From an uncultured Eubacteriales bacterium (GTDB taxonomy: Bacteria > Bacillota > Clostridia > Christensenellales > QALW01): 64,000 bases of DNA. Position 1 is the first letter of the stretch. Every line of letters begins with the position of its first letter. A model generated the notes under the pieces. It was given only the letters and a program-made list of their open reading frames with translations. It ran no database searches and was not told where the DNA came from. Location of the stretch: contig URIR01000001.1 of assembly GCA_900547955.1 (NCBI GenBank), positions 6,146 through 70,145 of the forward strand, written 5' to 3'. Made by a program: the position numbers and the translations under genes. Below, piece by piece: positions 1-22,572 of this stretch.

Positions 1-380
1 TTAATAAGTTCCTGAGTCTCAGAATTTTCGACATACTGATATTCTAATGCCGTTTTTTTATTTAGTAGCAAATTTTTTATTCTTATTGTCATCTTATTTT
101 TTCCAGTCAAACTGATTATCTCTGCAATTGTCGGTATAAGATTGATAAAGAGTATATATAAGACAATCATGACGATAGGAAGAAAGATTTCAGTAGTGTT
201 CCTTTTTCCTTCAAAAATGTCTATTGCGCAATCAATAAAATTAGCAATTGCAATGGTTTCATAAGCGGGCATCAATGCATTCGAAATTGTATATATAATT
301 GAAAATATCGATTGCAACGGAATGCAGCACATTGGATAAATTATGAAGTCTCTATTTTTAAACTTCAGTTTCTTTTTCAC
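1..380 (-). CDS. ABC transporter (exporter) N-terminal transmembrane part; the gene runs off the window
   Basis: Absent from the ORF track because it leaves the window. My translation from GTG 380 (RBS GAAGGAG about 10 nt upstream; alternative ATG at 332) reads VKKKLKFKNRDFIIYPMCCIPLQSIFSIIYTISNALMPAYETIAIANFIDCAIDIF...LEYQYVENSETQELI. This resembles the first TM helices of a type-I ABC exporter. It overlaps the 3' end of the rSAM/SPASM gene. Confidence 0.55.
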   Translation of the reverse strand, partial: MKKKLKFKNRDFIIYPMCCIPLQSIFSIIYTISNALMPAYETIAIANFIDCAIDIFEGKRNTTEIFLPIVMIVLYILFINLIPTIAEIISLTGKNKMTIRIKNLLLNKKTALEYQYVENSETQELI

Positions 381-1410
381 CCTGATTGATCTCCTTCAGC
401 GAGAGATTATAATTTGAAAAACGAATCTTTGCAAGCTTTTTGGCAAAATGGTCACATGAATATAAATCTTTATTCTCCATGAAAACCATTCCAGGACAAC
501 GATCACATTGAGTACTGTATTTACATTTATTACAGCATTTCAAATCTGAGTTTTTGATACTTTTAATTAACTTAAGTTCTTCTGAAGAATACCAGATGTC
601 TTTTAATGAATGATGATATATATTACCTATTTTATAAAAAAATGAGTTGCATGGGTAAACATCTCCTTGACAATCAATTGCAAAGGAATAAAACAAGGCG
701 GCACAAGGTACATTATTCGCATGTAAATGATCATTTCGAGAGATAGAATCTATAATTCTCATGGCAGAACATAAGTCACAGTCCTTGATACGAAGCATCT
801 GCGGCGAACTATCCCCGTCGTTCTTTGAAAAAATCAACGGCGATACCAAGTATTCAAAGCCATTTTCTTCGCAGTACGCTTGAATTTTAACAAAATTTTC
901 TAAATTTTTTTGCATTAAAGGCGTTTTTATACGTATTGGAATACCGGCTTCTTTTATTTCTCTCAGATTGTTTAACAGAAGTAATAGAGAGCCGCTCTTT
1001 TGTGTTATAGAATCATGGATGTATGGATTCATTGAGAAAATTGTGGTTGAAAACTCTGCAATATGAAAAGTTTTAAGTCTTGCGATTCGTTCACTATTGA
1101 GCAATGTCCCGTTGCTTAATAGAAAAACACGCATATATAAGCTTCTAGCAAACTCAATTATTTCAAACAGGTCGTCACGAAGAAATATTTCGCCTCCAGT
1201 TAATGATATATTCACTACACCTAGTTCTCTTAACTCTAAAAACAAAGCTTTAATTTTTTGCAAACTTAAACCAGAATTTGTATGAGAGGGAAGGTAGCAG
1301 TGTTCACATCTTAAATTACATTTTGTCAATAATTCTATCATAACACTAACAGGTCGATTTTCAGAAAAAGCCTTATTATAAAAATAATCAAGTAATAATT
1401 TTTGCCTCAT
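358..1410 (-). CDS. Radical SAM enzyme with C-terminal SPASM-type auxiliary cluster domain (peptide maturase)
   Basis: CNLRCEHCY (CxxxCxxC) near the N-terminus. Cys-rich C-terminus: CAALFY..CQGDVYPC..CCNKCKYSTQCDRCPG..C. The ATGA start/stop overlap with the upstream PqqD-like gene indicates translational coupling. Confidence 0.9.
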   Translation of the reverse strand: MRQKLLLDYFYNKAFSENRPVSVMIELLTKCNLRCEHCYLPSHTNSGLSLQKIKALFLELRELGVVNISLTGGEIFLRDDLFEIIEFARSLYMRVFLLSNGTLLNSERIARLKTFHIAEFSTTIFSMNPYIHDSITQKSGSLLLLLNNLREIKEAGIPIRIKTPLMQKNLENFVKIQAYCEENGFEYLVSPLIFSKNDGDSSPQMLRIKDCDLCSAMRIIDSISRNDHLHANNVPCAALFYSFAIDCQGDVYPCNSFFYKIGNIYHHSLKDIWYSSEELKLIKSIKNSDLKCCNKCKYSTQCDRCPGMVFMENKDLYSCDHFAKKLAKIRFSNYNLSLKEINQGEKETEV

Positions 1411-1688
1411 AAAATCCCCTCCACAATAAGTAAGTTTTTTCTTGTCAATTCTTTTATCTTTATTATTATTTTTTCGCTTATTCTCTCTTTATTATCTTTA
1501 TATTTTGTTGATAAAAAAGTGATAATTTCATCAAAGCTTTCAGTCTTCGATAAAAGCATCCAAAAATCTTTCATTATTCCTTTTAATAAAGTTAATTCAT
1601 TTGTTGTCTCGTCAAAAATAAATATCTCATTTCCTAATAATGTCCATGAAATGTTTTTTGAATACTGAATTTTGTTTATTATTTCCAT
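1407..1688 (-). CDS. PqqD-like peptide chaperone (RiPP recognition element)
   Basis: 93 aa. The pattern WTLLGNEIFIFDETTNELTLLKGIMKDFWMLL...FDEIITFL...IIIKIKELTRKNLL is typical of PqqD/RRE proteins. RBS AGGAG lies upstream, and the gene is coupled to the rSAM/SPASM gene. Confidence 0.75.
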   Translation of the reverse strand: MEIINKIQYSKNISWTLLGNEIFIFDETTNELTLLKGIMKDFWMLLSKTESFDEIITFLSTKYKDNKERISEKIIIKIKELTRKNLLIVEGIL

Positions 1689-1778
1689 ATTTCATACTCC
1701 TAGTACAAATACTTTAATGTCCAAAAGACTTGAAGAGCCATATTGAAGCATTTCAGCAGCTGAATTTAAAATATAATT

Positions 1779-1807
1779 ATCATATATAATAATTATATTA
1801 TTTGCAA
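1779..1807 (-). promoter_or_regulatory. Candidate internal sigma-A promoter (TTGCAA, 17 nt spacer, TATGAT) downstream of the precursor terminator
   Basis: Read on the minus strand: TTGCAA ataatataattattata TATGAT. It sits between the terminator hairpin and the PqqD-like gene. Confidence 0.4.
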
Positions 1808-1810
1808 GAG

Positions 1811-1861
1811 AATAAAAAATTAGGTGAAAGCGAGGTGATTGGTTCTACCTCGCTCTCACCT
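1811..1861 (-). terminator. Rho-independent terminator directly after the precursor peptide ORF
   Basis: 15-bp stem AGGTGAGAGCGAGGT / ACCTCGCTTTCACCT with one G-U pair and a 10-nt loop, followed by AATTTTTTATT on the minus strand. Confidence 0.7.
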
Positions 1862-1867
1862 ACCAGT

Positions 1868-1960
1868 TTACTTGCCATTGCAAGTACCCTGATTGCATTC
1901 GCCCATGTAGAACGCAACCAAAGACTTTTTCTTGGCATTTTTCTTAACCAACTTTTTCAT
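1868..1960 (-). CDS. Candidate RiPP precursor peptide, 30 aa: MKKLVKKNAKKKSLVAFYMGECNQGTCNGK
   Basis: Below the ORF-track size cutoff and found by hand. Strong RBS (GGAGGAATATGGC then ATG), a Lys-rich N-terminal half, a C-terminal ECNQGTCNGK with two Cys, and a strong terminator right after the stop. It sits between the ACP-like and PqqD-like genes. Confidence 0.65.
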   Translation of the reverse strand: MKKLVKKNAKKKSLVAFYMGECNQGTCNGK

Positions 1961-2155
1961 GCCATATTCCTCCTTTCATAAGTAAATGATAAAAGCGTTT
2001 ATGCGCTTTTATATATAATATTAATATTGGATTATTGAGGGCGTAGTCATGACCACAACTAAAAGACGTGGCATGAACGATATCCATAAAAGTGCATGAT
2101 GTTAGCTGTACCTAAAAGTAACGCTGAGATGTGGGTTGTGCATAACTTTATTTCT

Positions 2156-2413
2156 CTAAATCTCGTAATGGAACTTTGTTTTCTTTCCATTTTTGCTTTT
2201 TAGAATATCGCCAACAACAAGAACTACATAATGTAAATCACAGAATGTACTCATCAGCAAATATTCATCAGGAAATTCAATGTCAAATTCAGATTCAAGG
2301 CTGATTATTGCCGAAATAAAATTGATAGAATCCATATTGTCAAAATTTCCATTTTCCAATACAATTATCCCGTTTTCCTCTATACATTTTAATACTCTTT
2401 CATTAACAGTCAT
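2156..2413 (-). CDS. Acyl/peptidyl carrier protein-like small protein
   Basis: Start reassigned to the ATG at 2413 (RBS AAAGGAGATATACAT). It contains NMDSINFISAIISLESEFDIEFPDE, a DS(L/I) phosphopantetheine-attachment-like motif in an acidic helix context. About 85 aa. Confidence 0.65.
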   Translation of the reverse strand: MTVNERVLKCIEENGIIVLENGNFDNMDSINFISAIISLESEFDIEFPDEYLLMSTFCDLHYVVLVVGDILKSKNGKKTKFHYEI

Positions 2414-2426
2414 ATGTATATCTCCT

Positions 2427-4178
2427 TTAAACGTCATTTGAGAATTCATCTATAATCAATGAACATATTTGAGATGTATCGTTATCGTTCATTGAGAATA
2501 CTGGCAAATTAAATTGTTGTTCTAGCTCGTTCTTTATTCTTGAATATTCATTATTATCAACCTGTTCAATTTTATATCCAATCCCCGAAAGTGTAGCAAT
2601 TGCTTTCATCGGGAAAACAACAATGGCTTTTACTTTACCCTCGTCAATGGAATTCAAAAAATCAATTGTCTTTTTTATGTAATCAAAGTCATCATGCGGG
2701 TTGACACACAAAATAAAAACATCTGGTAAAGTACCCAACAAAAATGAATATTGTGATATCGCAAATTCATTGATATGTGAATTGTTGTAATGAATAACAC
2801 CAGATTGACAACCAGTTATTATAATATCTTTTTGTTTGAGCTGTACCTCAAAGATCATTTCATTTAGCGTTGCAATGTATTCGGATGGACTTAGATTAAG
2901 ATTCGCATGATATCCAAAATGAAATACATAATCAGCATTAAATAAGTATCCTGAGGGTTCTGTTATGATAGAACCAACATCATACCCTAACTGTGTTAGT
3001 TGATATATAATTTTTTGTTGCATCGTAAATTTCCCCTGTTTTGAACTTGTTCCAACAACCCCAACAACAGGAATAGTGACTTTGTATAATTTTAAGTCGT
3101 TTTCAATAGGCACATTGTTTTTTTCTATGTACGGATAGTAAATCGATTCATCAGATAAAGGGAGCGGTTCAAAAGAGTAAACATTTTTTCCAAAATACTT
3201 GGATTTACTTAGTATTTCCTCAACATAATTTCGTCTGGTTAACGCTGTTAAATCGGAAACACAAGACAATATAATGGTATCAAAGTTTTCTTGCCAGTCA
3301 ATATCATCAAATGATTTCACTATTTCGCCAAATATAGATTTTCCTACTTTTCCAGACAATCTATCATCATATGCACCAACCAGTTCGAAATTCAATTTAT
3401 CTTTAAAACGCAATAATGCATGACTTTCCTTATTAATAGGAAATACTATAGCTCTGCGTATATTAAAATTAGGCTTAATAAATTTTTTGCGCTTTTTTAG
3501 TGATATTGTTTTTGAACAAATAGAATGAATCATCGGAACAACATCAGAATAATATCCAACTTTCGCCGCTAACAATCCGCTAATATGTGCACAAGCAAAG
3601 CTTGTGCCTTTGATAATTGTTTTTGTATTTAGCCATAGGGTTCGATAATATCTATCAGATACTAAAAGATTAAATTTCCCATTTTCAACATATATTATTT
3701 CATCTTTTTTAACATCATTTTTTACATCTACTCCAACAACACTATCGAGAGCTGCCGGGAAAGAAACAGCGCCATTGTTATCGAATGCAGAAACAATGAT
3801 AACACCTTTTTTTGTTAATTTCGAACAAATATCATTTATTGCAGTATAATCATATAAATAGGTAACTCCTGCACTAATATTAATTATATCTATTTCAATA
3901 TTTTTATAGATAAATTCTAGTACTTTTACAAGACCAGATTCATCTACATTTAATTCATTGTTACAGATTCTAAATATAGTTATATCTATATTTTTGTTTG
4001 TATTCCAAAGAATATATGAAACAGCTGTTCCGTGTCCTACGAAATCTTCTATTAAAGTTTTGTGGATTTCCCATCCAGACGTGCCTTGATAAAGTGCATA
4101 TGAATCAATCACACAACTGCTTACAGGAGATAACGGAGATAACCCCGTGTCTATCACAGCAACCCTGGCATTTCTCAC
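2427..4178 (-). CDS. Subtilisin-like S8 serine protease fused to a C-terminal DUF1611-like (Rossmann + P-loop-like) domain
   Basis: N-terminal catalytic triad motifs VAVIDTG, HGTAVS and GTSFACAHISG. The C-terminal ~330 aa contain VVGVVGTSSKQGKFTMQQKIIYQLTQLGYDVGSIITEPSG, which resembles the GTxxxxGK segment of DUF1611 proteins. GTG start with RBS GAGGTGAGG. Confidence 0.8.
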   Translation of the reverse strand: MRNARVAVIDTGLSPLSPVSSCVIDSYALYQGTSGWEIHKTLIEDFVGHGTAVSYILWNTNKNIDITIFRICNNELNVDESGLVKVLEFIYKNIEIDIINISAGVTYLYDYTAINDICSKLTKKGVIIVSAFDNNGAVSFPAALDSVVGVDVKNDVKKDEIIYVENGKFNLLVSDRYYRTLWLNTKTIIKGTSFACAHISGLLAAKVGYYSDVVPMIHSICSKTISLKKRKKFIKPNFNIRRAIVFPINKESHALLRFKDKLNFELVGAYDDRLSGKVGKSIFGEIVKSFDDIDWQENFDTIILSCVSDLTALTRRNYVEEILSKSKYFGKNVYSFEPLPLSDESIYYPYIEKNNVPIENDLKLYKVTIPVVGVVGTSSKQGKFTMQQKIIYQLTQLGYDVGSIITEPSGYLFNADYVFHFGYHANLNLSPSEYIATLNEMIFEVQLKQKDIIITGCQSGVIHYNNSHINEFAISQYSFLLGTLPDVFILCVNPHDDFDYIKKTIDFLNSIDEGKVKAIVVFPMKAIATLSGIGYKIEQVDNNEYSRIKNELEQQFNLPVFSMNDNDTSQICSLIIDEFSNDV

Positions 4179-4213
4179 CAGACCTCACCTCATCAAAATC
4201 TAATTTAAATGAT

Positions 4214-5827
4214 TTACCCGAAAATTGGTTTGTAATAAATAAGCTGATCAATTTTTGCCAATTCGATTAATACTCTTTGTTGTATTCCCTTTAACTTCTT
4301 TTCAAGACTACAGTAACTTTCTAAAAACTGTGCAGTTTTTATATCAACCTGAATATGTATATTACTATCATCTAAAGAATTTATAATAAACATAAATATA
4401 TTGTAAGAAAACTCGTTGACAGCATTTAGCCATTCATAATATGCTTTATCATATTTCTTTATTAACGAGTCATATCCATAATAATGATAATATCGATTTC
4501 TCAAGAATTCTGTTCCATTATCGTTTGGTATTGATATTTTTTTATACACTTTAATTACTAAGGTATATATTTTTTGAACCTCTTCATTAACAAAATTATA
4601 ATTGAATTTGTATTTTAAAGCATCACATAAAGGCAGCAAGCCAAGGTGAAAAGGGAATAAACAATCCAAATCAATTTTTGTACTTATTGAAGTTAATGAA
4701 TTGGCAGTTAATTTACTGGCAATAATATACGGATTTAAATATAACCTTAAATCTCTAAAAGTTTGTATGTTATTGCGTAGACCATCAATAGTTGAATAGG
4801 GGTTAAAATTAATAAAACCATACTCCACTTTAACAAAATAATCATTGGTTAACTCGGTAAATACTTCCAATAAATTAATACATTTGTTAATCGACTGCAG
4901 ACCAGCCCGTTTTCTATACAATCTTAAATCGGATTCGTTAAAGCTTTCAATGCCTATAAATATCTTTCCGAGTCCATAATTTTTTAGACTTATTAAACTT
5001 TGAACAACCGCTTCGTTTATTTGTTCGGCTCTAATGTTGAAAGTAAACTGAATCCAGTAGTCCTTTTTTGATAGTGCATCATATAATTTATTTAGCCTGT
5101 TAACTACATCATTTGAAGAAACGAAAGTTGGATCAGAAAAACAAATAAATTTACATTGATATTTTTCAACCAAATAATCAATTTCTTTTATAATGCTTTC
5201 AATACTTCTACATCTTACACAATTTACACCATTGTTTGAATAAAGACTATTTCTATCACAAAATGTACAATACCCCTCACAACCTCGTGAACCGTAAACA
5301 TGAAAATAATTTGATCCTTGATAATCAAAGTCCCTATTAGGAAAAGGTAATTTGTCTATATCAGCCAATGGTCTTGGCTTGTTTACAATAATCTTACCAT
5401 TTTCTTTGAATGCAATTCCTTTGCAATATTTAACTTCTTTCCCATTAAGAAATAGGTTTGATAGCTCAATGAGCGTCTCTTCATATTCGCCTAAAATTGC
5501 AACATCAATTTGCGGAATCTCATTCAAAAGTTCTTTATAATGACGGTTGACCAATGTATGACATATAACTATTTTAGCGTATTTGTTAGCGTATTTAATT
5601 TCATTACATATTTTTACCAATAAATCATAACATCCATAGGAAAGAAAAATCACAAACAATTCAATATTTTCTTTTTTTATCAACTGTAGTGTTCTATCAA
5701 GATTGCTGCTTTCTATTTTTTGCACATAAATATCATTATTGATACTTTGAAGCGCGGCTATTCCATATGCAACTTCTAAGCAATGCAATTCATTATTAGA
5801 AAAATATATTGCGCCTATGCTTTTCAC
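4214..5827 (-). CDS. B12-binding-domain radical SAM enzyme (class B rSAM)
   Basis: The N-terminal ~150 aa show a Rossmann-like cobalamin-binding-domain pattern. This is followed by GSRGCEGYCTFCD (CxxxCxxC). GTG start with RBS AAGGAG. First gene of the cassette. Confidence 0.85.
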   Translation of the reverse strand: MKSIGAIYFSNNELHCLEVAYGIAALQSINNDIYVQKIESSNLDRTLQLIKKENIELFVIFLSYGCYDLLVKICNEIKYANKYAKIVICHTLVNRHYKELLNEIPQIDVAILGEYEETLIELSNLFLNGKEVKYCKGIAFKENGKIIVNKPRPLADIDKLPFPNRDFDYQGSNYFHVYGSRGCEGYCTFCDRNSLYSNNGVNCVRCRSIESIIKEIDYLVEKYQCKFICFSDPTFVSSNDVVNRLNKLYDALSKKDYWIQFTFNIRAEQINEAVVQSLISLKNYGLGKIFIGIESFNESDLRLYRKRAGLQSINKCINLLEVFTELTNDYFVKVEYGFINFNPYSTIDGLRNNIQTFRDLRLYLNPYIIASKLTANSLTSISTKIDLDCLFPFHLGLLPLCDALKYKFNYNFVNEEVQKIYTLVIKVYKKISIPNDNGTEFLRNRYYHYYGYDSLIKKYDKAYYEWLNAVNEFSYNIFMFIINSLDDSNIHIQVDIKTAQFLESYCSLEKKLKGIQQRVLIELAKIDQLIYYKPIFG

Positions 5828-6498
5828 AAACTTACTCCTTTTAATTATTGTTTATAGCCGCATTCTACTATAGAACGAATTCTCCCAATTTCACACTCTC
5901 TACAAACCATGAATTTAAAAAGACTTTTTAGTACTCACTCGAACACAAAAAGCGAAACAAGGTACAAATAAATACTATGATTCATGTCGCTCATAAATTT
6001 TATAGAAAATGAATAGAATAAACATAAGAAACTATAACTGCTATTATATGATAAAATTTGAACATATTTTTGACGTCCCATTTGTTGTTACGTTCTTTTA
6101 TCTTTTCTATTCATCTCCCTTTGGAATATTGCGTGAAAAATATTACTCATCTCCATTAGACTATCACACATTTTTTCAAATGTCAATATTTAATTTTAAA
6201 ATTTGCGGCTATATTATATATAAATTTCATTATATCTTTTGTCTAACATGTCGCAGTTTTGCTCTATCAAAAAACTAATAATTTGCACCATATTCATAAA
6301 TTTAATCGTATAAATATATTTTGTTGAATATATTTTATTAGAAATACCGTGAAACTTCCGATATCTCGCCTGAGAATCTGCAAAAGGTAATCAATAATTT
6401 GTTATCATCTGTTTTTATCGCTACATTTTTAATTAACATTGAGAGTGTATAAGTTTCACCATCTTAAGTTGCCCCTTGCCATTCAGTAACAATTTTTT

Positions 6499-7525
6499 CT
6501 ATGTTCTTTGTTTTACTTGTACCTTATATATTAATTGCTTTTTGATCGTGCCATATAAATCATAACCTGCAAAAATAAAATTTTTATCAGGTACAGTCGA
6601 TAAAGAATTAAAGTAAACAATTATAATTTGTGGAATAGTTTCTACTACATAACAATCTTTATCTATTTTAGCTAGAATCATTTCCTGTATAAAACCAATT
6701 ATTAGCTTCCCAAGTAATGAAGAAGCGTCTCCACAAGTGGGTATTCCTGTACCATTAAGACATAAGGAAGTTTTATCGATAGAATTTGTGGTATGTATGC
6801 CAATGCGCTGAACCGCTTTTCCTTCAACTGTTTGTGTATTTGTATATGTTGTACACTCGTGTTCAATCAATAAGAAGTTATCTTTCTCACACTACTCGTT
6901 TTCCAATACCACGTTGCTTTACAATTGTGTTGTTCTTTAATAATCAATTCTTTCAGTTTAAATCCAGCATTTTGGAAAATTCCCATAACTTCAAAAGACA
7001 TCGGGATCATACAGCCTTTTTGACGGGTATCTCCCATTAAAACAGCACAAAACTTGTCTTTTTTTAATATACGGTAGCTTTCAGCAGCATTTCCTCAATA
7101 AAGTCTTTGACTTTCAGATTAGACAAATTTTCTGCGATGTCCTTGCTGTATTTGATAATATCAGCATGAGGCGGGTGGGTAAAGATAAGGTCAATACTAC
7201 CGCTCTAAATAAAATCCAAGTGCCTTGCCTTTGCGAATATAAACCTTACTGTTTGCACCCTTGTGTTCAAAATCAATTTTAATTCTGCATCTATCAAGAG
7301 CAACATCGTTCACATCAACGCTGATGATATCACTCAGTAAACTGATCAAGTACTAAATCTCCCTCTTCCGAATATCGAAGTGATATATTCTTGGAATATA
7401 GGGCGACCAATTCCCACTCCATTTTGCATCGTGAGTCGCACAGTCGCCACGATTGGGAAAAGACCAGTATGTAGTAATTTCCGGTTCTGAATCTTCTGGC
7501 TCTGATTTTGTTGTTTTCTTTGCCG
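6499..7525 (-). pseudogene. Decayed DNA methyltransferase (N6A/N4C type) downstream of the DpnII-like endonuclease
   Basis: Pieces lie in three frames: YWSFPNRGDCATHDAKWSGNWSPYIPR / LRYSEEGDLVLDQF(stop) / VDVNDVALDRC..GFYLER(stop) / GSIDLIFTHPPHADIIKYS...ATVY(stop)...KFCAVLMGDTRQKG..FKLKELIIKEQHN..NFLLIEHE. The expected GxGTT AdoMet motif after VLDxF is deleted. The listed ORF 6499..6870 begins inside the last conserved motif. Confidence 0.65.
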
Positions 7526-8404
7526 TTATTTGAAGACCTCGCTAATGATTCCATTCTCCAAATCCTTGATGTTGTAAATATGTTCCATTACGTCAAAAGT
7601 TTCTTCAAGGTTGTTTCGGGCGCTTGTCCATCCTTTACCATCCGTAAACCATACAAAAGTGAATCCATCAATAGTATCCGTTTCAAGAGCAAGAGTCTTA
7701 TAGCTGCGAGCCGTTTCGTTGAGTTTACTGCCTCCGCTTCCATAAAAGTTGGTTTCAATGCCATAAATCATGCTGGGAGTTTTTATAACGAAGTCAAACC
7801 GCTTTTCCATTTTGCCTTGATTGGATATAGCAGAGAGATCGATATCCCATTTTGCGGTGATTTGGTGTATGTACATTTCCTTGAAGTAGGTTGTGTCTTT
7901 TACAAACTTTGCTTTCTTGATAAAGCTTTCAACTAAATCTTCCATCAAATGCCCGCCACGATTTTTACGACCGTTAGAATCCAATCCTGTCTCTACACCT
8001 GTAACATAGTCAACAAGATTATTGATGATGTGATTTTCCAGTAAGTCAAATAACCCTGTATGCTCCATAAAATAAGCATAACGCTCATAATGCGCATAGC
8101 TATTCGGAGAGTATTTTCCAAAGTTAAATTTGTACAGATAACCACCGTTTTCATCTTGACAATATATTTCATTAGCTCTGACTGCCAAAAGCAGAGGAAT
8201 ACATTTCAAAGCTTCAGGATACTTCTTGATTAAAGTTTTGAAATCTTCTTTAATGCTCTTAGAGCCAATAAGAGAATTCAGGATATTCAGTTCAACCTTT
8301 ATATTATCGATATTGCGGTGAACTTTTTCAAAGTCTATGTAATAGCGGTAGTCTGCTATGCTATCACGGAAACTTGATAACCATTCGTTGAAATTTCTCA
8401 CCAT
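7526..8404 (-). CDS. DpnII/MboI-family type II restriction endonuclease (GATC-type)
   Basis: MVRNFNEWLSSFRDS...VTGVETGLDSNGRKNRGGHLMEDLVESF...GIETNFYGSGGSKLNE matches my memory of the DpnII family. Start reassigned to the ATG at 8404, one nt after the stop of the upstream gene, with GAAGGAG as RBS. Confidence 0.8.
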   Translation of the reverse strand: MVRNFNEWLSSFRDSIADYRYYIDFEKVHRNIDNIKVELNILNSLIGSKSIKEDFKTLIKKYPEALKCIPLLLAVRANEIYCQDENGGYLYKFNFGKYSPNSYAHYERYAYFMEHTGLFDLLENHIINNLVDYVTGVETGLDSNGRKNRGGHLMEDLVESFIKKAKFVKDTTYFKEMYIHQITAKWDIDLSAISNQGKMEKRFDFVIKTPSMIYGIETNFYGSGGSKLNETARSYKTLALETDTIDGFTFVWFTDGKGWTSARNNLEETFDVMEHIYNIKDLENGIISEVFK

Positions 8405-8405
8405 A

Positions 8406-8942
8406 TTATCTCCTTCTTCCCCCAAATCCTGCCGTAGATATGATTTTAAATATATCACGGTCTGCATCTAATAGCTCCTCGATAATGTTTCCAAACATAT
8501 AGGCATCGGCACGATTGGTCTTTTCCTGTACAGCCAATAATTCCATCAAAACATAAAGAAACTCAACATCATATTCACCAAAAGCATTTAAGCTGAAAAA
8601 CTGAGCAATATCAATGTCGTTTTCGCCATTTTTGATTAGTGCCTTTAGCGTTTCATAATCATTATTGGTTAGTGGAACACAAGATTTCCAGCAATTTTGA
8701 ATAGCCAGCAAATATCTCTTTGCAAGAATTTCATTCCCCTGCATTTTCATCAATACATCTACTACCCAATGAATGTGCTTAGGAGTACGGATACGTGTAC
8801 TGTCTTTTTTGTACTTGATTACAATATCAAATTGCGATAAATTCCCTTGAAAAACATAGATAATATAATCTGTAAAGATAAATTCTATAATCGCTTTTTT
8901 AGTATCGTTTTCGATAAGTTGACTTCCTTTTCTGATTTCCAT
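8406..8942 (-). CDS. Hypothetical 178-aa protein embedded in the R-M operon
   Basis: Clean ORF, tightly packed between the methylase and the endonuclease and translationally coupled to the endonuclease. I recognise no motif. Confidence 0.6.
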   Translation of the reverse strand: MEIRKGSQLIENDTKKAIIEFIFTDYIIYVFQGNLSQFDIVIKYKKDSTRIRTPKHIHWVVDVLMKMQGNEILAKRYLLAIQNCWKSCVPLTNNDYETLKALIKNGENDIDIAQFFSLNAFGEYDVEFLYVLMELLAVQEKTNRADAYMFGNIIEELLDADRDIFKIISTAGFGGRRR

Positions 8943-8953
8943 ATATAAACCCC

Positions 8954-10024
8954 TTAAAAATTAGAAATAAGCAATTCCTTGATTTTACCCCTTGCCTCGC
9001 TGTTGCAGTTAATCATACGGGTAGCTTCAACACGCTTGATTCTATGAGACGAATAAATGTTATCGAAGAAGTTATCTTCGGTGTTAGAATTCTTGGGATC
9101 GGAATTGCTAATTACGACCTTTGCACCTTTTCTGTGCATATTATCAACGAATTTTGCGAGCTCAATCTGTTTTTCATCGTTAAACAAATTTTCCGTGTAT
9201 GCAGTAAAGCTCGCAGTATCTGTTATGGGGCGATATGGAGGGTCAAAATAAACGAAAGTATTGGCATCAATGAAAGCAGCTGATTCTCTATAGTCTCCGC
9301 ACACAATGTTTACCGTTTGCAGTTTTTCTGACACCGCTCTGAGATTTTCTTCATCACAAATCGAAGGATTTTTGTAAGCTCCCATAGGTACATTAAACAA
9401 GCCTTTTTTATTGACTCGGTATAAGCCGTTAAAGCAAGTTTTATTAAGAAAAATCATCAACGCTGCCTTTTCAATATTTACAATCTCGTTTCCATTGACT
9501 TTCAAATTATTAAAACGCTCCCGCTTTGCCAAGTAATATGCTTTGCGATGCTCCGTATCCATTGGAACAAACTCACTTTGCATGATTGCAAGCGTAAAAA
9601 CAAGATCATATATGTCGTCACGAATAATGCGATAGGCATTAATTAGTTCTGCATTAATGTCGCTGATATACACTTCCTTCAAATCGTACTTGCTTAAAAT
9701 ATCAAAAAGCACGGCGCCACCGCCTACAAATGGCTCGGCATACTTAGTAATTTTTTTATGTCCAAAGGGATAGTACTTTTCAATTTCGGACAGAAGCTGT
9801 CCTTTGCCACCCGCCCATTTTAAGAACGGTTTAACTTTACCACTATCCTGTTGCAAATATCGAGTAGTCCTCGCATCGATTGGTTTTTCTGCCGTAGTAG
9901 GTATGAGCCACGTATTACCCACCATTTTGGCATTAGCTATTCTGTTCTCCGAACAAAGAATAGCAACGCGTCTTTGTGATACCCCCCATTTATCAGCAGC
10001 TTCTCTTGCGGACATGTATTCCAT
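8954..10024 (-). CDS. Dam-type (D12 class) N6-adenine DNA methyltransferase with an N-terminal HTH domain
   Basis: N-terminus MSAREAADKWGVSQRRVAILCSENRI (HTH). Then KPFLKWAGGKGQLL, EPFVGGGAV and YFDPPY, the Dam family motifs. Confidence 0.9.
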   Translation of the reverse strand: MEYMSAREAADKWGVSQRRVAILCSENRIANAKMVGNTWLIPTTAEKPIDARTTRYLQQDSGKVKPFLKWAGGKGQLLSEIEKYYPFGHKKITKYAEPFVGGGAVLFDILSKYDLKEVYISDINAELINAYRIIRDDIYDLVFTLAIMQSEFVPMDTEHRKAYYLAKRERFNNLKVNGNEIVNIEKAALMIFLNKTCFNGLYRVNKKGLFNVPMGAYKNPSICDEENLRAVSEKLQTVNIVCGDYRESAAFIDANTFVYFDPPYRPITDTASFTAYTENLFNDEKQIELAKFVDNMHRKGAKVVISNSDPKNSNTEDNFFDNIYSSHRIKRVEATRMINCNSEARGKIKELLISNF

Positions 10025-10054
10025 AACGTGCCTCCTGTTTTAACGATAATATTA

Positions 10055-10072
10055 TATTCGAAATCTCGAATA
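10055..10072. promoter_or_regulatory. Palindrome TATTCGA-aatc-TCGAATA upstream of the HTH-methylase gene; candidate operator
   Basis: Perfect 7-bp inverted repeat with a 4-nt spacer, 30-50 nt upstream of the methylase start. Confidence 0.35.
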
Positions 10073-10124
10073 ATAGCAATACTGATTTTCTAAAAGCCAC
10101 AAATAATTTTCATTTTGACTTTAA

Positions 10125-10292
10125 GCTATATGTTGCCAAGACAAGGGCATTGTACATTGTGGGGAGTGCCCGGATATTCCGTGCGAATTATTGACGCAAT
10201 ATTCCTGTGCTCCTGAGCATGGTGATACTCCTCGGAGCGCCAGAATTGAGCAGTGCAAGCGGTGGTATGCCGAGCCGAAAGGAGAAAGATAA
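10125..10292 (+). pseudogene. 5'-truncated DUF3795-like zinc-binding protein fragment
   Basis: AICCQDKGIVHCGECPDIPCELLTQYSCAPEHGDTPRSARIEQCKRWY has no start codon and a stop lies immediately upstream. It sits at the GC-content step at the right edge of the low-GC block. Confidence 0.5.
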
Positions 10293-10539
10293 AATGGATA
10301 CAAAGATAATCTCTCTCCGTATGGAGCGCTAGTGCTTCATTCATAAAGCGGATGAAGAAGAATACATAAAATTATATCGGGATACCCAGCCTGGACAAAA
10401 TGTATATTGGAATGGATTCGGACAGCCACCGACGCTTTCTTTTCGTGCTGATTTTGATGATATTGAATTTAATCGTGACCGTCAGCTAAAATGAAAACTG
10501 ATAAAAGGCAGATTTTTCGGCGGCAATTTAGGCTGGATT

Positions 10540-11289
10540 GTGCCGGAAGATATGGAGCTGTTTATCGCTCTCTATCGCAAGCCGCTTGTAAAGCCAACTG
10601 AAATACAGCTGCGGGTCTTGGAGTTTATTAAACGGGAGGGACCGCTCAACATCCAGCAAATCAAAGAAGAAACCGGATTGCTTGTGAAAGAAATCACCCC
10701 CGCTCTTCACCGTTTGCAAGAGGCTTTTTTGATATATGAAGACCAATATGACGGTGAGTGGGACAGAGGATGGTATAAATTTGTTGGAATGTTCCCGCAA
10801 GTAAATTCCGATAAGGTTTCAAGACACAAAGCGCTCAAAATCGTATTGCAAAGATTCGCGTATCGTCTTGTATGGTTTGATACGGCGATGGCTAAATCAT
10901 TCTATAAGATTCCTGAAAAAGAAATAAAACTGTCTGTTAATGAACTGGTTGCTGAAGGCAGATTGGTTTTGTCAGGCTCAGGTTATATGCTGAAGAGTGA
11001 TGCTGACCTGCTCGAAAATTACGAGCCTCAGGTTATGAACTTCGTTTATGCGATTCACCGCAACGACTTTCTTTATAAGGTTCATGAGCACGTTCTGAAG
11101 GAGATGGCTAAGGAATTGACGAAAGGTCTTGAATATGATCACGAATCTCTGCAATACCTGTTGATTGACGGAGAATTCCACGGTGCGTCAGTCGGTCACT
11201 TTCGAAACGGTCCGTATGATCTCAATGATGTTGTTTGTGATTTGCCGAAAGTCGAAAAGAAGAAATTATCGAGGCAATTCGTGCTGTAA
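10540..11289 (+). CDS. Winged-helix domain protein, possibly YcaQ/AlkZ-like (DUF1006); possibly truncated
   Basis: IQLRVLEFIKREGPLNIQQIKEETGLLVKEITPALHRLQEAFLIYE has a wHTH pattern. There is no clear start codon or RBS (GTG 10540 or ATG 10552). Confidence 0.4.
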   Translation: MPEDMELFIALYRKPLVKPTEIQLRVLEFIKREGPLNIQQIKEETGLLVKEITPALHRLQEAFLIYEDQYDGEWDRGWYKFVGMFPQVNSDKVSRHKALKIVLQRFAYRLVWFDTAMAKSFYKIPEKEIKLSVNELVAEGRLVLSGSGYMLKSDADLLENYEPQVMNFVYAIHRNDFLYKVHEHVLKEMAKELTKGLEYDHESLQYLLIDGEFHGASVGHFRNGPYDLNDVVCDLPKVEKKKLSRQFVL

Positions 11290-11335
11290 ACTATGGTAAA
11301 AGTCCCAAACGGTTTATGGAAAAGGAATTATAAGA

Positions 11336-11842
11336 ATGAGCCAAGGACTGATTACTATTGTTGGAGCAAATGGAGCCGGAAAAACCACAACATCAAAATC
11401 ATTACTGCTGATGTGTCTGCATAGTGCATATGTGGATGCAGATTGGTGTAGAGCCATCAATCCATTTCAATTTACTAAAGCGACTAAAAAAACGATAACA
11501 AACAATATTATTTGCTTAATTAGAAACTATTTATTATGCGATGATATCGAAACCGTTATCTTCCACTATGGTTTTTATGGAGAAAGAAAAGCGCTCTATG
11601 ATGAAGTGATGAATTGCTTAAGAAATGAGGGGATAATTTTCGATGAATACATTGTTGCATTAAAATGTGAGTATGACGAAAACAAAAGACGTTCTATTAA
11701 AGATAACAGAGATCCTGAACGTGTAGAGCGAGGAATGAGAAATACGTTTAATTTCTATGATGGTTTTGGTTATCCTATAATAGACACAATATTTCTTTTT
11801 TCAGATCAAGTTGCTGAAAAAATCATAGAGACGTTCTTCTAA
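11336..11842 (+). CDS. P-loop NTPase / kinase-like protein
   Basis: Walker A motif IVGANGAGKTTT at the N-terminus. 168 aa, low GC. Confidence 0.55.
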   Translation: MSQGLITIVGANGAGKTTTSKSLLLMCLHSAYVDADWCRAINPFQFTKATKKTITNNIICLIRNYLLCDDIETVIFHYGFYGERKALYDEVMNCLRNEGIIFDEYIVALKCEYDENKRRSIKDNRDPERVERGMRNTFNFYDGFGYPIIDTIFLFSDQVAEKIIETFF

Positions 11843-11944
11843 TGAATTATTCTCGCTCAAGGAAATTTAGATATCAAATCGGGCAATAGTGAAATATAAC
11901 TTCATTAGATGATATCGCACCGCTTTTGAAAAATACGCAGATAA

Positions 11945-11985
11945 GCACAAAGTCCGCAGATTCACTAATTCTGCGGACTTTGTGC
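11945..11985. terminator. 15-bp perfect hairpin (GCACAAAGTCCGCAG / CTGCGGACTTTGTGC) without a clear U-tract
   Basis: Read directly. It lies between the convergent P-loop gene and guaA. Confidence 0.4.
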
Positions 11986-12031
11986 CTCTCAATCGGTCAC
12001 CTTTGAAAGTATCCTTATGGGAACCCTGTAT

Positions 12032-22009: not shown

Positions 22010-22011
22010 GC

Positions 22012-22560
22012 ATGGAAGAAAAGAATGATATAATTCAAGGCCAGCTTAAGGCTGTGGACGAAATGTTTACCATAAATTATATAACGGGCGATAACGCCGT
22101 ATTTGAACGGACATCGGGCGGGTTTTTAGCCATGCGCTTTAACGGAGAATATTATTCGCGCGTTCAGCCTTATAGGGCTTTTCCTTTTACCGACCCGGAA
22201 AAATATATTTCTATAAGGTCGGGCAACGGCAATGAGAGCAGGGAGGTAGGGATTATTAAAACGCTGGCCGAAATGCCTGAAAAATACCGCAGCCTGATAG
22301 AGGAACAACTGGAATTAAGATATTTTATGCCCGAGATAATAAGAATACATAGCATACGCGAGGAATACGGCTATTCCTATTGGGATGTTACTACCGACCG
22401 CGGCGAATGCCGCTTTACGACAAATATGAGCGCGGGCACGGCGGTATCCCTTTCGGAGATTAGGATGATTATTAAGGATGTGGACGATAATCGCTTTGAA
22501 ATAAAGGATATAGGCAAATTAAGCGCGTCCGAATTAAAAATGCTTGATATATATTTATAG
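22012..22560 (+). CDS. DUF1854-like protein located between the two ABC genes
   Basis: 182 aa, starting 2 nt after the upstream stop. The sandwiched position and the sequence (..RVQPYRAFPFTDPEKYISIR...VGIIKTL..) fit my memory of DUF1854. Confidence 0.65.
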   Translation: MEEKNDIIQGQLKAVDEMFTINYITGDNAVFERTSGGFLAMRFNGEYYSRVQPYRAFPFTDPEKYISIRSGNGNESREVGIIKTLAEMPEKYRSLIEEQLELRYFMPEIIRIHSIREEYGYSYWDVTTDRGECRFTTNMSAGTAVSLSEIRMIIKDVDDNRFEIKDIGKLSASELKMLDIYL

Positions 22561-22572
22561 GAGAGTATATTT

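What the first reader, a model, noticed from the sequence alone, without database searches (positions are those of the whole stretch)
1779..1960. Unannotated 30-aa precursor candidate MKKLVKKNAKKKSLVAFYMGECNQGTCNGK with its own terminator and a downstream re-start promoter
**Seen in the sequence:**
- An ORF below the track cutoff has a near-ideal RBS (GGAGGAA).
- Its N-terminal half is very Lys-rich (8 K in the first 12 residues) and its tail is ECNQGTCNGK, with two Cys each followed by Asn.
- The stop is followed 6 nt later by a 15-bp GC-rich hairpin plus a T-run.
- A TTGCAA-17-TATGAT promoter-like element then precedes the PqqD-like and rSAM genes.

**Inference:**
- This is the classic arrangement for over-producing a precursor relative to its maturases.
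- The core would be very short (about 9-10 residues), so at most two crosslinks could form. The recurring C-N dipeptide may mark the acceptor or donor positions.
Basis: seen in the sequence. Interest (0 to 1): 0.7.

Follow-up and report, generated by a model that had tools for sequence, protein, structure and literature searches.

The report
Conserved precursor peptide for radical-SAM maturases

Summary
The ORF at 1960..1868 (-) is real. It has an AGGAGG ribosome-binding site 8 nt upstream. A 15-bp hairpin plus T-run follows 6 nt after the stop (dG -34.8, z -8.2).

**Evidence that it is a precursor**
- The same small ORF lies between the carrier-protein gene and the PqqD-like gene in every homologous cluster examined.
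- It is under strong purifying selection (pN/pS 0.06-0.18).
- All 21 distinct loci measured have a ribosome-binding site, and 17 of them have a stable hairpin after the stop, with compensatory changes.

**Anatomy**
- The peptide reads as a hybrid. Its leader (MKKLVKK...[LF]Y-x-x-E) resembles CLI_3235-type precursors and tracks the protease/DUF1611 fusion and carrier protein.
- Its core (C-x-x-G-x-C-x-G) resembles streptococcal KIS/SSH peptides and tracks the PqqD + radical SAM/SPASM pair.
- No component reaches a curated family cut-off.

**Claims that fail**
- The Asn after each Cys is not conserved, so the C-N idea fails.
- The TTGCAA-17-TATGAT promoter is not above chance and is not conserved.
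- The hairpin's T-run is often missing, so it more likely attenuates or stabilises than fully terminates.

The chemistry is inferred, not shown. Thioether cross-links from the two Cys are most likely, with a possible carrier-protein-dependent step. I rate this a new variant of a known kind, of moderate interest.

The parts
1868..1960 (-). Precursor peptide gene, 30 aa: MKKLVKKNAKKKSLVAFYMGECNQGTCNGK. The leader runs to about residue 18-21 and ends in the motif F-Y-x-x-E. The core holds C22 and C27 in the pattern C-x-x-G-x-C-x-G.
   Evidence: ORF. Orthologues at the same position. pN/pS 0.06-0.18. Weak hits to TIGR04065 (residues 1-27) and to the KIS RaS-RiPP peptide model (residues 21-30).
1969..1974 (-). 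Shine-Dalgarno sequence AGGAGG, 8 nt upstream of the ATG.
   Evidence: Sequence. A GGAGG/GGAG/GGTGG box at the same distance in all 21 distinct orthologous loci.
1811..1861 (-). Stem-loop with 15-bp arms (1861..1847 and 1836..1822) followed by the T-run 1821..1811. It is terminator-like in this window and is probably an attenuator or transcript-stabilising 3' end.
   Evidence: dG -34.8, z -8.2; 13 pairs, 6 with compensatory changes, none broken; hairpin z < -2 in 17 of 21 loci, T-rich tail in 5 of 21.
1779..1807 (-). Promoter-like TTGCAA-17-TATGAT. It is doubtful and may be a chance match in AT-rich DNA.
   Evidence: 9/12 matches; 52 sites found against 43 +/- 6.9 expected. The -10 is TATGAG in L001 and no such element is seen in other relatives.
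1407..1688 (-). PqqD-like protein of 93 aa, the presumed leader-binding chaperone (RRE). Its stop overlaps the radical SAM start by 4 nt.
   Evidence: Pfam PqqD E 0.0029. NCBIfam WgkC-type PqqD chaperone E 0.0012. Equivalent genes in L098 and L099 carry PF05402 on record.
358..1410 (-). Radical SAM/SPASM peptide maturase of 350 aa, with CX3CX2C at C31/C35/C38 and the SPASM cysteines, and no fused leader-binding domain.
   Evidence: Pfam Radical_SAM 1.3e-19 and SPASM 1.9e-11. Invariant Cys columns. Closest solved structure is SkfB, 6efn, E 1.3e-15. No NCBIfam model approaches its cut-off.
1..380 (-). 5' part of the first of two ABC exporter genes. It runs off the left edge of the window.
   Evidence: Translation. 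The full genes (595 and 584 aa, ABC_tran/ABC_membrane, no C39 peptidase domain) are seen in the identical locus L088.
2156..2413 (-). Acyl-carrier-like protein of 85 aa, with its own AGGAG box and the D-S-I phosphopantetheine-site motif.
   Evidence: Weak generic ACP hits, none to TIGR04069. The Ser of [DEN]-S-x is invariant in about 50 related loci. Phosphopantetheinyl transferase genes lie in related clusters L001 and L095.
2427..4178 (-). Fusion protein of 583 aa. The N-terminal part is a pro-less subtilisin (S8) with D10/H49/S193. The C-terminal part is a DUF1611 / TIGR04066-like P-loop domain with a DgcN-like fold.
   Evidence: Pfam and NCBIfam: QhpE-like 87 bits, TIGR04066 65-67 bits against a cut-off of 200. 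Invariant D10, H49, S193 and G376-T377...Q381-G382-K383. AF2 model pLDDT 92. Foldseek matches subtilisins, 2obn, 2g0t and 7xrj DgcN.
4214..5827 (-). B12-binding radical SAM enzyme of 537 aa, a likely C-methyltransferase. It is present only in part of the family.
   Evidence: Radical_SAM, weak B12-binding, and best NCBIfam hit MCR glutamine C-methyltransferase at 77.6 bits against a cut-off of 360. Presence or absence across loci.

Best explanation
**What it is**

The 30-codon gene encodes the precursor of a ribosomally made, enzyme-modified peptide. The biosynthetic cluster on the minus strand reads B12 radical SAM, S8 protease/DUF1611 fusion, carrier protein, PRECURSOR, PqqD-like chaperone, radical SAM/SPASM, then two ABC exporters.

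**What is shown**
- The gene is translated and conserved.
- Its position in the cluster is fixed.
- The peptide has a bipartite design.
- The Lys-rich leader, ending in [LF]-Y-x-x-E, co-occurs with the protease/DUF1611 fusion and the carrier protein.
- The core, C-x(2-5)-C-x-G, co-occurs with the PqqD + radical SAM/SPASM pair, even in clusters that lack the protease module.

**What is inferred, step by step**
1. The PqqD-like protein binds the leader and presents the core to the radical SAM/SPASM enzyme.
2. That enzyme uses its auxiliary Fe-S clusters to join the sulfur of C22 and/or C27 to a carbon of a nearby residue. This gives one or two small thioether rings (probability about 0.5).
3. 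Where present, the B12 radical SAM adds a C-methyl group.
4. The cytoplasmic, pro-less S8 domain removes the leader at or near F-Y-x-x-E.
5. The fused DgcN-like domain, working with the phosphopantetheinylated carrier protein, performs a further step. This may be N-acylation of the newly exposed amine, or ATP-dependent activation. This is the least certain step.
6. The ABC pair exports a product of about 9-12 residues.

**Regulation**

The conserved stem-loop after the stop codon ends or stabilises most transcripts there. The precursor message would then exceed the maturase message, with read-through supplying the downstream genes.

**Function**

Whether the product is an antimicrobial or a signal is unknown.
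For: **ORF, ribosome-binding site and hairpin**
- Present as described.

**Conservation of the small ORF**
- It is found in clusters whose radical SAM is 45-86% identical, always between the carrier-protein and PqqD genes.
- pN/pS is 0.06-0.18, while synonymous sites are near saturation.
- An exhaustive phmmer search with the peptide returns only same-family peptides.

**Modularity**
- The core motif appears next to radical SAM relatives (39-46% identity) that lack the protease and carrier genes, in L003, L004, L005, L098 and L099.
- The leader motif [LF]Y-x-x-E appears with distant protease/DUF1611 fusions that are paired with other radical SAM types and longer Cys-rich cores.
- The window peptide's leader half hits TIGR04065 and its core hits the KIS peptide model. 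The protease-less relatives hit the KIS and SSH models.

**Enzyme features**
- The SPASM cysteines are invariant.
- The closest solved enzyme is the thioether-forming SkfB. Thioether maturases AlbA, SkfB and StsB and PapB are among the NCBIfam hits.
- The S8 catalytic triad and the P-loop are invariant.
- The C-terminal half has the DUF1611/DgcN fold.
- The carrier-protein Ser is invariant, and phosphopantetheinyl transferase genes occur in related clusters.

**Hairpin**
- Conserved, with compensatory changes.
Against: - No chemistry has been observed for this peptide or for any close relative.
- Every family assignment of the enzymes is below its curated cut-off, so reaction types are analogies.
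- The PqqD assignment rests on weak scores (18 bits) plus gene context.
- The leader cleavage site is not defined. In the 'YCENTGTC' subfamily the first Cys lies before the conserved Glu, which complicates a single boundary.
- The window's own cluster shows no phosphopantetheinyl transferase within 10 kb downstream.
- No gene for loading the carrier protein is evident.
- The T-run after the hairpin is missing in most relatives, so termination is not established.
Confidence: 0.85

Rival explanations
1. It is simply a member of the already defined CLI_3235 / CcpM bacteriocin system (TIGR04065 precursor with the TIGR04066, TIGR04068 and TIGR04069 partners). An example is SacP23 of Paenibacillus polymyxa.
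For: - The best NCBIfam hit of the peptide is TIGR04065 (E 0.0014).
- The SacP23 precursor begins MRKLVKR...IEAF, like this leader.
- The parts list is the same: S8 protease, TIGR04066-like protein, ACP-related protein, radical SAM and ABC transporter.
Against: - All four models fail their cut-offs. The peptide scores 18.7 against 26 bits. The TIGR04066-like region scores 65-67 against 200.
- TIGR04068 is not among the 25 listed hits for the radical SAM, although that model does score a distant relative's enzyme.
- TIGR04069 is not hit even at E 10.
- The core has two Cys rather than a Cys-rich tract.
- The radical SAM is of a different type: 350 aa, with a separate PqqD protein.
Confidence: 0.1
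2. The small ORF is a cis-regulatory leader peptide (attenuation) or a chance ORF. On this reading the hairpin is just the terminator of the upstream operon, and the real substrate is encoded elsewhere.
For: - A short ORF followed by a terminator ahead of biosynthetic genes resembles classical attenuators.
- The window is cut at its left edge, so further genes are not visible.
Against: - The amino-acid sequence is conserved while synonymous sites are saturated.
- The leader is homologous to known precursor leaders.
- In relatives L003, L005, L098 and L099 the homologous peptide gene lies downstream of the radical SAM, so it cannot act as a 5' leader.
- Some loci carry two or three tandem copies.
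- The identical cluster on longer contigs shows no other candidate precursor.
Confidence: 0.03
3. It is an agr-type autoinducing-peptide precursor (AgrD-like), cyclised through a Cys thiolactone. It would be a pheromone gene rather than a radical SAM substrate.
For: - Related clusters sit beside AgrB, a histidine kinase and a LytTR regulator.
- The peptide is short and contains Cys.
Against: - Those loci have their own 49-51 aa AgrD-like ORF next to AgrB.
- The window cluster has no AgrB in the 10 kb upstream of the radical SAM gene.
- The peptide ends 3 residues after the second Cys and lacks the C-terminal tail of AgrD (the AgrD feature is stated from general knowledge).
- The core motif follows the radical SAM/PqqD pair.
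- The mature product could still be a signal, which this evidence does not address.
Confidence: 0.02

Closest known systems
CLI_3235 / CcpM 'Cys-rich peptide' maturation system (NCBIfam TIGR04065, TIGR04066, TIGR04068, TIGR04069), for example SacP23 of Paenibacillus polymyxa (PMC10731318) and the Roseburia intestinalis cluster (PMC4573289)
   Same: - Lys/Arg-rich leader starting M[KR]KLVK.
- Same accessory set: subtilisin-like protease, TIGR04066/DUF1611-like protein, ACP-related protein and ABC exporter.
- A radical SAM/SPASM maturase is present.
- The chemistry is still unknown for this system as well.
   Different: - All components score below the family cut-offs.
- The protease and the DUF1611-like protein are fused into one polypeptide.
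- The radical SAM is a short 350-aa enzyme with a separate PqqD protein rather than CcpM.
- The core has only two Cys in about 9 residues, not a Cys-rich tract.
- Part of the family has an extra B12 radical SAM.
Streptococcal KIS and SSH RaS-RiPP subfamilies (NCBIfam NF050044 and NF050043; both listed as 'function not characterized' in PMC13361665)
   Same: - The core segment ECNQGTCNGK aligns to the KIS peptide model.
- Protease-less relatives of this system hit the KIS model (13-20 bits) and the SSH model (28.6 bits).
- The architecture is a precursor plus a discrete PqqD-like chaperone plus a radical SAM/SPASM. WgkB and WgkC are among the better NCBIfam hits.
   Different: - Scores are far below the cut-offs (70 and 45 bits).
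- The leader is different.
- There is no Rgg/SHP regulator. Some relatives have agr-like regulators instead.
- The protease/DUF1611 and carrier-protein module is additional.
NxxcB / NxxC beta-thioether RaS-RiPP (Caruso et al. 2019, as summarised in PMC9389541)
   Same: - A short motif with an amide residue three positions before a Cys. Here it is Q-G-T-C, and N-G-S-C or N-S-A-C in orthologues.
- NxxcB tolerates Gln at the acceptor position.
- A small thioether ring of this kind is a plausible product.
   Different: - No detected sequence relationship beyond the shared superfamily.
- The -3 position is Thr or His in some orthologues.
- No chemistry has been tested.
QhpC/QhpD/QhpE maturation of quinohemoprotein amine dehydrogenase
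   Same: - The S8 domain's best NCBIfam hit is the leader-removing, pro-less subtilisin QhpE (87 bits).
- From general knowledge, the QhpD radical SAM/SPASM makes Cys-to-Asp/Glu thioethers, and a Glu is conserved beside the first Cys here.
   Different: - The QhpE hit is below its cut-off (165 bits).
- The substrate here is a free, exported peptide rather than an enzyme subunit.
- There are no dehydrogenase genes.
SkfA/SkfB (sporulation killing factor)
   Same: - SkfB is the closest solved structure by sequence (6efn, E 1.3e-15, residues 17-299).
- SkfB forms a Cys-to-Met alpha-thioether in a short peptide (PMC9389541 reference list).
   Different: - The similarity is low.
- SkfB has its own N-terminal domain and a different auxiliary-cluster arrangement.
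- The cluster composition is different.

Membership tests
Radical SAM-dependent RiPP precursor (general kind) | A short ORF encoded beside a radical SAM/SPASM enzyme and a leader-binding (PqqD/RRE) protein, and conserved with them. | tested here: met
   The ORF is at the same position in all related clusters. The core motif follows the radical SAM/PqqD pair even when the other genes are absent.
Radical SAM-dependent RiPP precursor (general kind) | The ORF is protein-coding and under purifying selection, with a leader/core bipartite pattern. | tested here: met
   pN/pS is 0.06-0.18. The leader and core motifs are conserved separately.
Radical SAM-dependent RiPP precursor (general kind) | The peptide is post-translationally modified by the enzyme. 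| not testable with these tools
   This needs co-expression and mass spectrometry or NMR.
CLI_3235 family bacteriocin precursor (TIGR04065) | HMM score at or above the curated cut-off of 26 bits. | tested here: not met
   18.7 bits, E 0.0014, residues 1-27. Orthologues score 14-15 bits.
CLI_3235 / CcpM system | Partner radical SAM is CcpM (TIGR04068). | tested here: not met
   TIGR04068 is absent from the 25 listed hits of the window radical SAM, all of which are far below their cut-offs. The model is in the library and scores 113 bits on a distant locus enzyme.
CLI_3235 / CcpM system | Partner TIGR04066 protein and TIGR04069 ACP-related protein. | tested here: not met
   TIGR04066 scores 64.6-66.8 bits against a cut-off of 200. 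TIGR04069 is not hit at E up to 10, and only generic ACP models match weakly. These are homologous in kind but not members.
KIS family RaS-RiPP peptide (NF050044) | HMM score at or above 70 bits. | tested here: not met
   17.2 bits, over residues 21-30 only.
Sactipeptide / ranthipeptide | A Cys sulfur-to-carbon thioether installed by a radical SAM/SPASM enzyme. | not testable with these tools
   Only indirect support is available. The SPASM Cys are invariant, SkfB is the closest solved enzyme, and the two Cys are the most conserved core residues.
Intrinsic (Rho-independent) terminator | A stable GC-rich stem-loop immediately followed by a U-run. | tested here: inconclusive
   Met in the window. 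The stem is conserved in 17 of 21 loci, but a T-rich tail occurs in only 5 of 21. Function needs 3'-end mapping.
Sigma-70 type promoter (the 'restart' element 1807..1779) | -35 and -10 hexamers at 16-18 nt spacing, better than background and conserved. | tested here: inconclusive
   The match is 9/12. Such sites number 52 against 43 +/- 6.9 in shuffles. The final T of the -10 is lost in L001, and there is no counterpart in other relatives.
AgrD-type autoinducing peptide precursor | Encoded next to AgrB. | tested here: not met
   No AgrB is called in the 10 kb upstream of the radical SAM gene in the identical locus L088. Relatives have separate 49-51 aa ORFs beside AgrB. The peptide also ends 3 residues after C27; that AgrD carries a C-terminal tail is general knowledge and was not tested here.

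The most novel reading that the evidence does not exclude
The peptide belongs to a RiPP class whose maturation needs carrier-protein chemistry. After the radical SAM cross-links the two-Cys core, the protease half of the fusion protein would expose a new N-terminus. The fused DgcN-like DUF1611 half would then transfer a group from the phosphopantetheinylated carrier protein onto it, or tether and activate the peptide on the carrier. The product would be an acylated, thioether-bridged mini-peptide of about 10 residues, made by gut Clostridia and often placed under agr-type quorum sensing. This would assign a first function to the TIGR04066/TIGR04069 pair, which is uncharacterised in the papers found here.
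Probability: 0.2. Interest if true: 0.75.

Novelty: new variant of a known kind. Interest (0 to 1): 0.5.

Why it matters
- It identifies the substrate gene of a widespread but uncharacterised radical SAM peptide pathway. At least 120 clusters at 90% identity were listed for each of the radical SAM and the fusion protein. Hosts include human-gut Clostridia, rumen and fermenter bacteria and Paenibacillus.
- With the true precursor and its conserved positions in hand, the pathway becomes directly testable by co-expression.
- The modular pattern predicts which protein reads which part of the peptide. The leader goes with the protease/DUF1611 fusion and carrier protein, and the core goes with the PqqD and radical SAM pair.
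- It also offers a route to the function of the DUF1611-like and ACP-related proteins of the CLI_3235-type systems. No role is established for them in the papers found here.

Tried and rejected
- **Genome scan:** It returned mostly unrelated SPASM enzymes, and only L003-L005 were useful.
- **Word-indexed search:** The search for homologous proteins refuses a 30-aa query.
- **Exhaustive search:** the exhaustive search with the single peptide found only 3 representatives. The family was instead recovered by fetching loci through the fusion protein and scanning them with a peptide HMM.
- **Literature:** searches for the peptide strings found nothing. Searches for DUF1611 or DgcN found nothing relevant. 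Searches for TIGR04069 or 'acyl carrier-related protein' returned only the two CLI_3235 papers already found.
- **B12 radical SAM target:** I tried to link presence of the B12 radical SAM to a core residue. Gln at -3 of the second Cys goes with it inside the close clade. However, Gln-containing cores occur without it in L003, L004 and L098, and the association follows one clade. I reject it as evidence.
- **Upstream 123-aa ORF (6499..6870):** it has no Pfam hit and no counterpart in related loci, so it is not part of the system.
- **Promoter for the precursor:** I looked in the 195-nt spacer upstream. Only a conserved AACGCTTTTAT(C/T)AT block was seen, and no scan hit.
- **C-N dipeptide idea:** rejected from orthologue sequences.
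Full report
**1. The observation**

On the minus strand, 1960..1868 encodes MKKLVKKNAKKKSLVAFYMGECNQGTCNGK.
- AGGAGG lies at 1974..1969, 8 nt before the ATG.
- Six nucleotides after the TAA stop, a 15-bp stem (arms 1861..1847 and 1836..1822, one G-U pair, 10-nt loop) is followed by AATTTTTTATT (1821..1811).
- The fold has dG -34.8 kcal/mol and z -8.2, and none of 200 dinucleotide shuffles folds as well.
- TTGCAA-17-TATGAT is at 1807..1779 with 9/12 matches. Sites of that quality are no more frequent here than in shuffled sequence (52 against 43 +/- 6.9).
- Two small corrections apply. There are 7 Lys, not 8, in the first 12 residues. The exact peptide is already a called but unnamed gene in public collections.

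**2. Surroundings**

The ORF sits inside a minus-strand cluster. In order, the genes are:
- a B12-binding radical SAM (5827..4214);
- a 583-aa fusion of a subtilisin-like S8 protease with a DUF1611 / TIGR04066-like domain (4178..2427);
- an 85-aa acyl-carrier-like protein (2413..2156);
- the peptide;
- a 93-aa PqqD-like protein (1688..1407), overlapping the next gene by 4 nt;
- a 350-aa radical SAM/SPASM enzyme (1410..358);
- two ABC exporters, the first of which runs off the left edge.

The cluster has 30.4% G+C against 46.3% for the rest of the window and adjoins a DpnII-type restriction-modification system. It therefore looks like an acquired island. The rest of the window is chromosomal (guaA, pyrG, purB, purA). 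The host is an unnamed Clostridia lineage, since the best named PurA relative is a 'Clostridiales bacterium' at 70% identity.

**3. Is the ORF a gene?**

I fetched clusters through graded radical SAM homologues and through the fusion protein. Every cluster whose fusion protein is at least 44% identical, and whose contig reaches far enough, has the same gene order. Each has a 29-32-codon ORF between the carrier-protein and PqqD genes. Examples:
- ...SLIAFYMGECKQGTCNGQ
- ...TLVTFYMGECNQGTCNGR
- ...ALVTFYMGECSQGTCSGK
- ...TLVAFYMGECKNGSCQGR
- ...NLITFYMGECKNSACNGR
- ...TLVSFYYCENTGTCSGM
- ...QLVSFYAKCENTNNCNGK

Across five alignable orthologues, synonymous differences are near saturation (pS 0.44-1.1). 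Non-synonymous differences stay at 0.04-0.17, giving a ratio of 0.06-0.18. The coding stretch is also more conserved than 90 nt of either flank. The ORF is therefore translated and under selection as a protein.

An exhaustive phmmer search of 1.84 billion representatives with the peptide finds only three same-family peptides. No curated model covers it. The best hits are TIGR04065 at 18.7 bits (cut-off 26, residues 1-27) and the KIS RaS-RiPP peptide model at 17.2 bits (cut-off 70, residues 21-30).

**4. Two modules in one peptide**

The leader tracks the protease/DUF1611 fusion and carrier protein.
- Distant versions of the fusion (32-39% identity) are paired with other radical SAM types. One example is a 441-aa enzyme with TIGR04463/Clo7bot/CcpM-like similarity.
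- Their neighbouring small ORFs keep the leader (MKKL.KK ... [VL]-x-[LF]-Y-x-x-E) but carry longer, Cys-rich cores.
- Examples are MKKLLKKKTTVKIKVSLYMGEGGGNQCCSGYQCCKP and MKKLVKKVDKEKKLVAFYANESCNTVGYCQTNSGNCVSGCS.

The core tracks the PqqD + radical SAM pair.
- Radical SAM relatives of the window enzyme (39-46% identity) have a PqqD gene but no protease/DUF1611 or carrier gene within 8 kb.
- They still have peptides with the same core and a different leader: MKKYVKPVIIEKKAVASRGCKQGTCNGQ...MESRVCNQGACNGK...EPMCKQGACNG......VVCKKAACSGSSSH......NRGCAPCRGK.
- These peptides hit the streptococcal KIS and SSH RaS-RiPP peptide models weakly.

So the core C-x(2-5)-C-x-G follows the PqqD + radical SAM pair. 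The leader motif follows the protease/DUF1611 + carrier-protein pair. The window peptide combines both.

**5.

- The precursor reading is right, and the core is indeed short.
- The C-N dipeptide is not conserved. N23 is K or S, and N28 is S or Q, in orthologues.
- The positions that hold are the two Cys, Gly25 in most sequences, Gly29 in most, and a Glu next to the first Cys in the protease-associated forms (before it in GEC, after it in YCE).

**6. The hairpin and the promoter**

- All 21 distinct loci have a Shine-Dalgarno box.
- Seventeen of the 21 have a stable hairpin right after the stop (z < -2), often with unrelated sequence.
- Among the four alignable loci, 6 of 13 pairs show compensatory changes and none is broken.
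- A T-rich tail follows the hairpin in only 5 of 21 loci. The structure is conserved, but full termination is not implied. Attenuation or 3'-end stabilisation with read-through fits better.
- From general knowledge, such hairpins after the structural gene are common in lantibiotic and bacteriocin operons.
- The restart promoter is unsupported. It is a chance-level match, and its -10 loses the final T in the nearest relative (TATGAG in L001).
- Many relatives leave only 70-100 nt before the PqqD gene.

**7. The enzymes**

*Radical SAM/SPASM*
- It has CX3CX2C and invariant SPASM cysteines.
- Its closest solved relative is the thioether-forming SkfB (E 1.3e-15).
- AlbA, SkfB and StsB and PapB appear among weak NCBIfam hits, all far below cut-off.

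*Fusion protein*
- It models with high confidence (pLDDT 92, pTM 0.90).
- Residues 1-230 match subtilisins, including lanthipeptide leader proteases.
- The rest matches the DUF1611 structures 2obn and 2g0t and the N-acetyltransferase DgcN, 7xrj.
- The protease starts directly at the catalytic Asp (D10) with no pre-pro region, so it should act in the cytoplasm. Its best family hit is the leader-removing QhpE (87 bits, below cut-off).
- D10, H49, S193 and the P-loop G-T-x4-G-K are invariant.

*Carrier-like protein*
- It keeps the Ser of [DEN]-S-x in about 50 loci.
- Phosphopantetheinyl transferase genes occur in related clusters.
- A working carrier protein is therefore likely. What it carries is unknown, and no loading enzyme is evident.

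**8. Most likely mechanism**

All steps below are inferred.
1. The PqqD-like protein binds the leader.
2. The radical SAM/SPASM links C22 and/or C27 to a nearby carbon, giving small thioether rings.
3. The B12 enzyme methylates where it is present.
4. The S8 domain removes the leader near F-Y-x-x-E.
5. The DgcN-like domain and the carrier protein perform an acyl-transfer or activation step.
6. The ABC pair exports the product.

On the acceptor residue, a Q/N-x-x-C arrangement recalls NxxC, whose enzyme tolerates Gln. However, the -3 position is Thr or His in some orthologues.

Several relatives lie beside agr-type quorum-sensing genes. The product's role as antibiotic or signal is open.

**9. 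Comparison and novelty**

- The nearest described system is the computationally defined CLI_3235/CcpM system. Its only experimental example in the searched library is SacP23, whose structure is unsolved.
- The nearest cores are the uncharacterised streptococcal KIS and SSH subfamilies.
- Every membership test by curated cut-off fails. I therefore file this as a new variant of a known kind, namely a radical SAM-modified peptide precursor.
- It is a solid, useful call rather than a surprising one.
- The unexplained part is the conserved protease/DgcN-like fusion with a dedicated carrier protein.

Noticed in passing
window 1-5830 versus 12001-64000: The peptide cluster has 30.4% G+C against 46.3% for the chromosomal remainder. 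The adjoining 5831-12000 region has 36.5%. This looks like a horizontally acquired island. In relatives L001 and L002 the same cluster sits among conjugation genes (T4SS-DNA_transf, TraG).
   Followed up: partly
window 7526-10024 (-): A DpnII-type restriction enzyme (313 aa), a 178-aa ORF and a Dam-like D12 methyltransferase (356 aa) lie directly upstream of the cluster. The Pfam assignments come from the identical locus L088.
   Followed up: no
L001, L002, L083, L085, L095 (flanks of the cluster): agr-like quorum-sensing genes (AgrB, a 49-51 aa AgrD-like ORF, an HATPase_c_5 kinase and a LytTR regulator) flank the orthologous clusters, but no such genes are called in the ~5.6 kb upstream of the window's cluster. 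L001 and L095 also carry a phosphopantetheinyl transferase, and L001 a second 85-aa ORF of unknown type.
   Followed up: partly
L086 and L087, about 6113-7476: An IS3-family transposase insertion has removed the upstream half of the cluster and the first codons of the precursor. The remaining ORF reads ...PVKKALLAFYMGECKNGSCQGR. This is a decaying copy.
   Followed up: partly
L003 8996-9257; L169 1682-2053; L154 3458-3733: Some related loci carry two or three tandem precursor genes with slightly different cores.
   Followed up: no
window 1975-2155 (-), especially 2012..1989: The 195-nt spacer before the precursor contains an AT-rich hairpin, ATAAAAGCGCATAAACGCTTTTAT. It also has a block, AACGCTTTTAT(C/T)AT, that is conserved in window, L001 and L085. 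This may be the precursor's own -10 region or a regulator site.
   Followed up: partly
window 2413-2449 (-): The carrier-protein gene has alternative called starts giving 85, 93 and 97 aa. The 85-aa form has a proper AGGAG box and is the most frequently called. The longer forms overlap the end of the fusion gene.
   Followed up: yes
window 19655-24756 (+): Two large ABC transporters (784 and 727 aa) each have an N-terminal extension of about 190 aa ahead of the membrane domain, and a 182-aa ORF lies between them. They are unrelated in position to the peptide cluster and their substrate is unknown.
   Followed up: no
window 46515-48302 (+): A 595-aa protein has five PG_binding_1 repeats (E 7e-82), a PG_binding_2 domain and a weak sub-threshold POTRA match. 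It is probably a cell-wall-associated protein.
   Followed up: no
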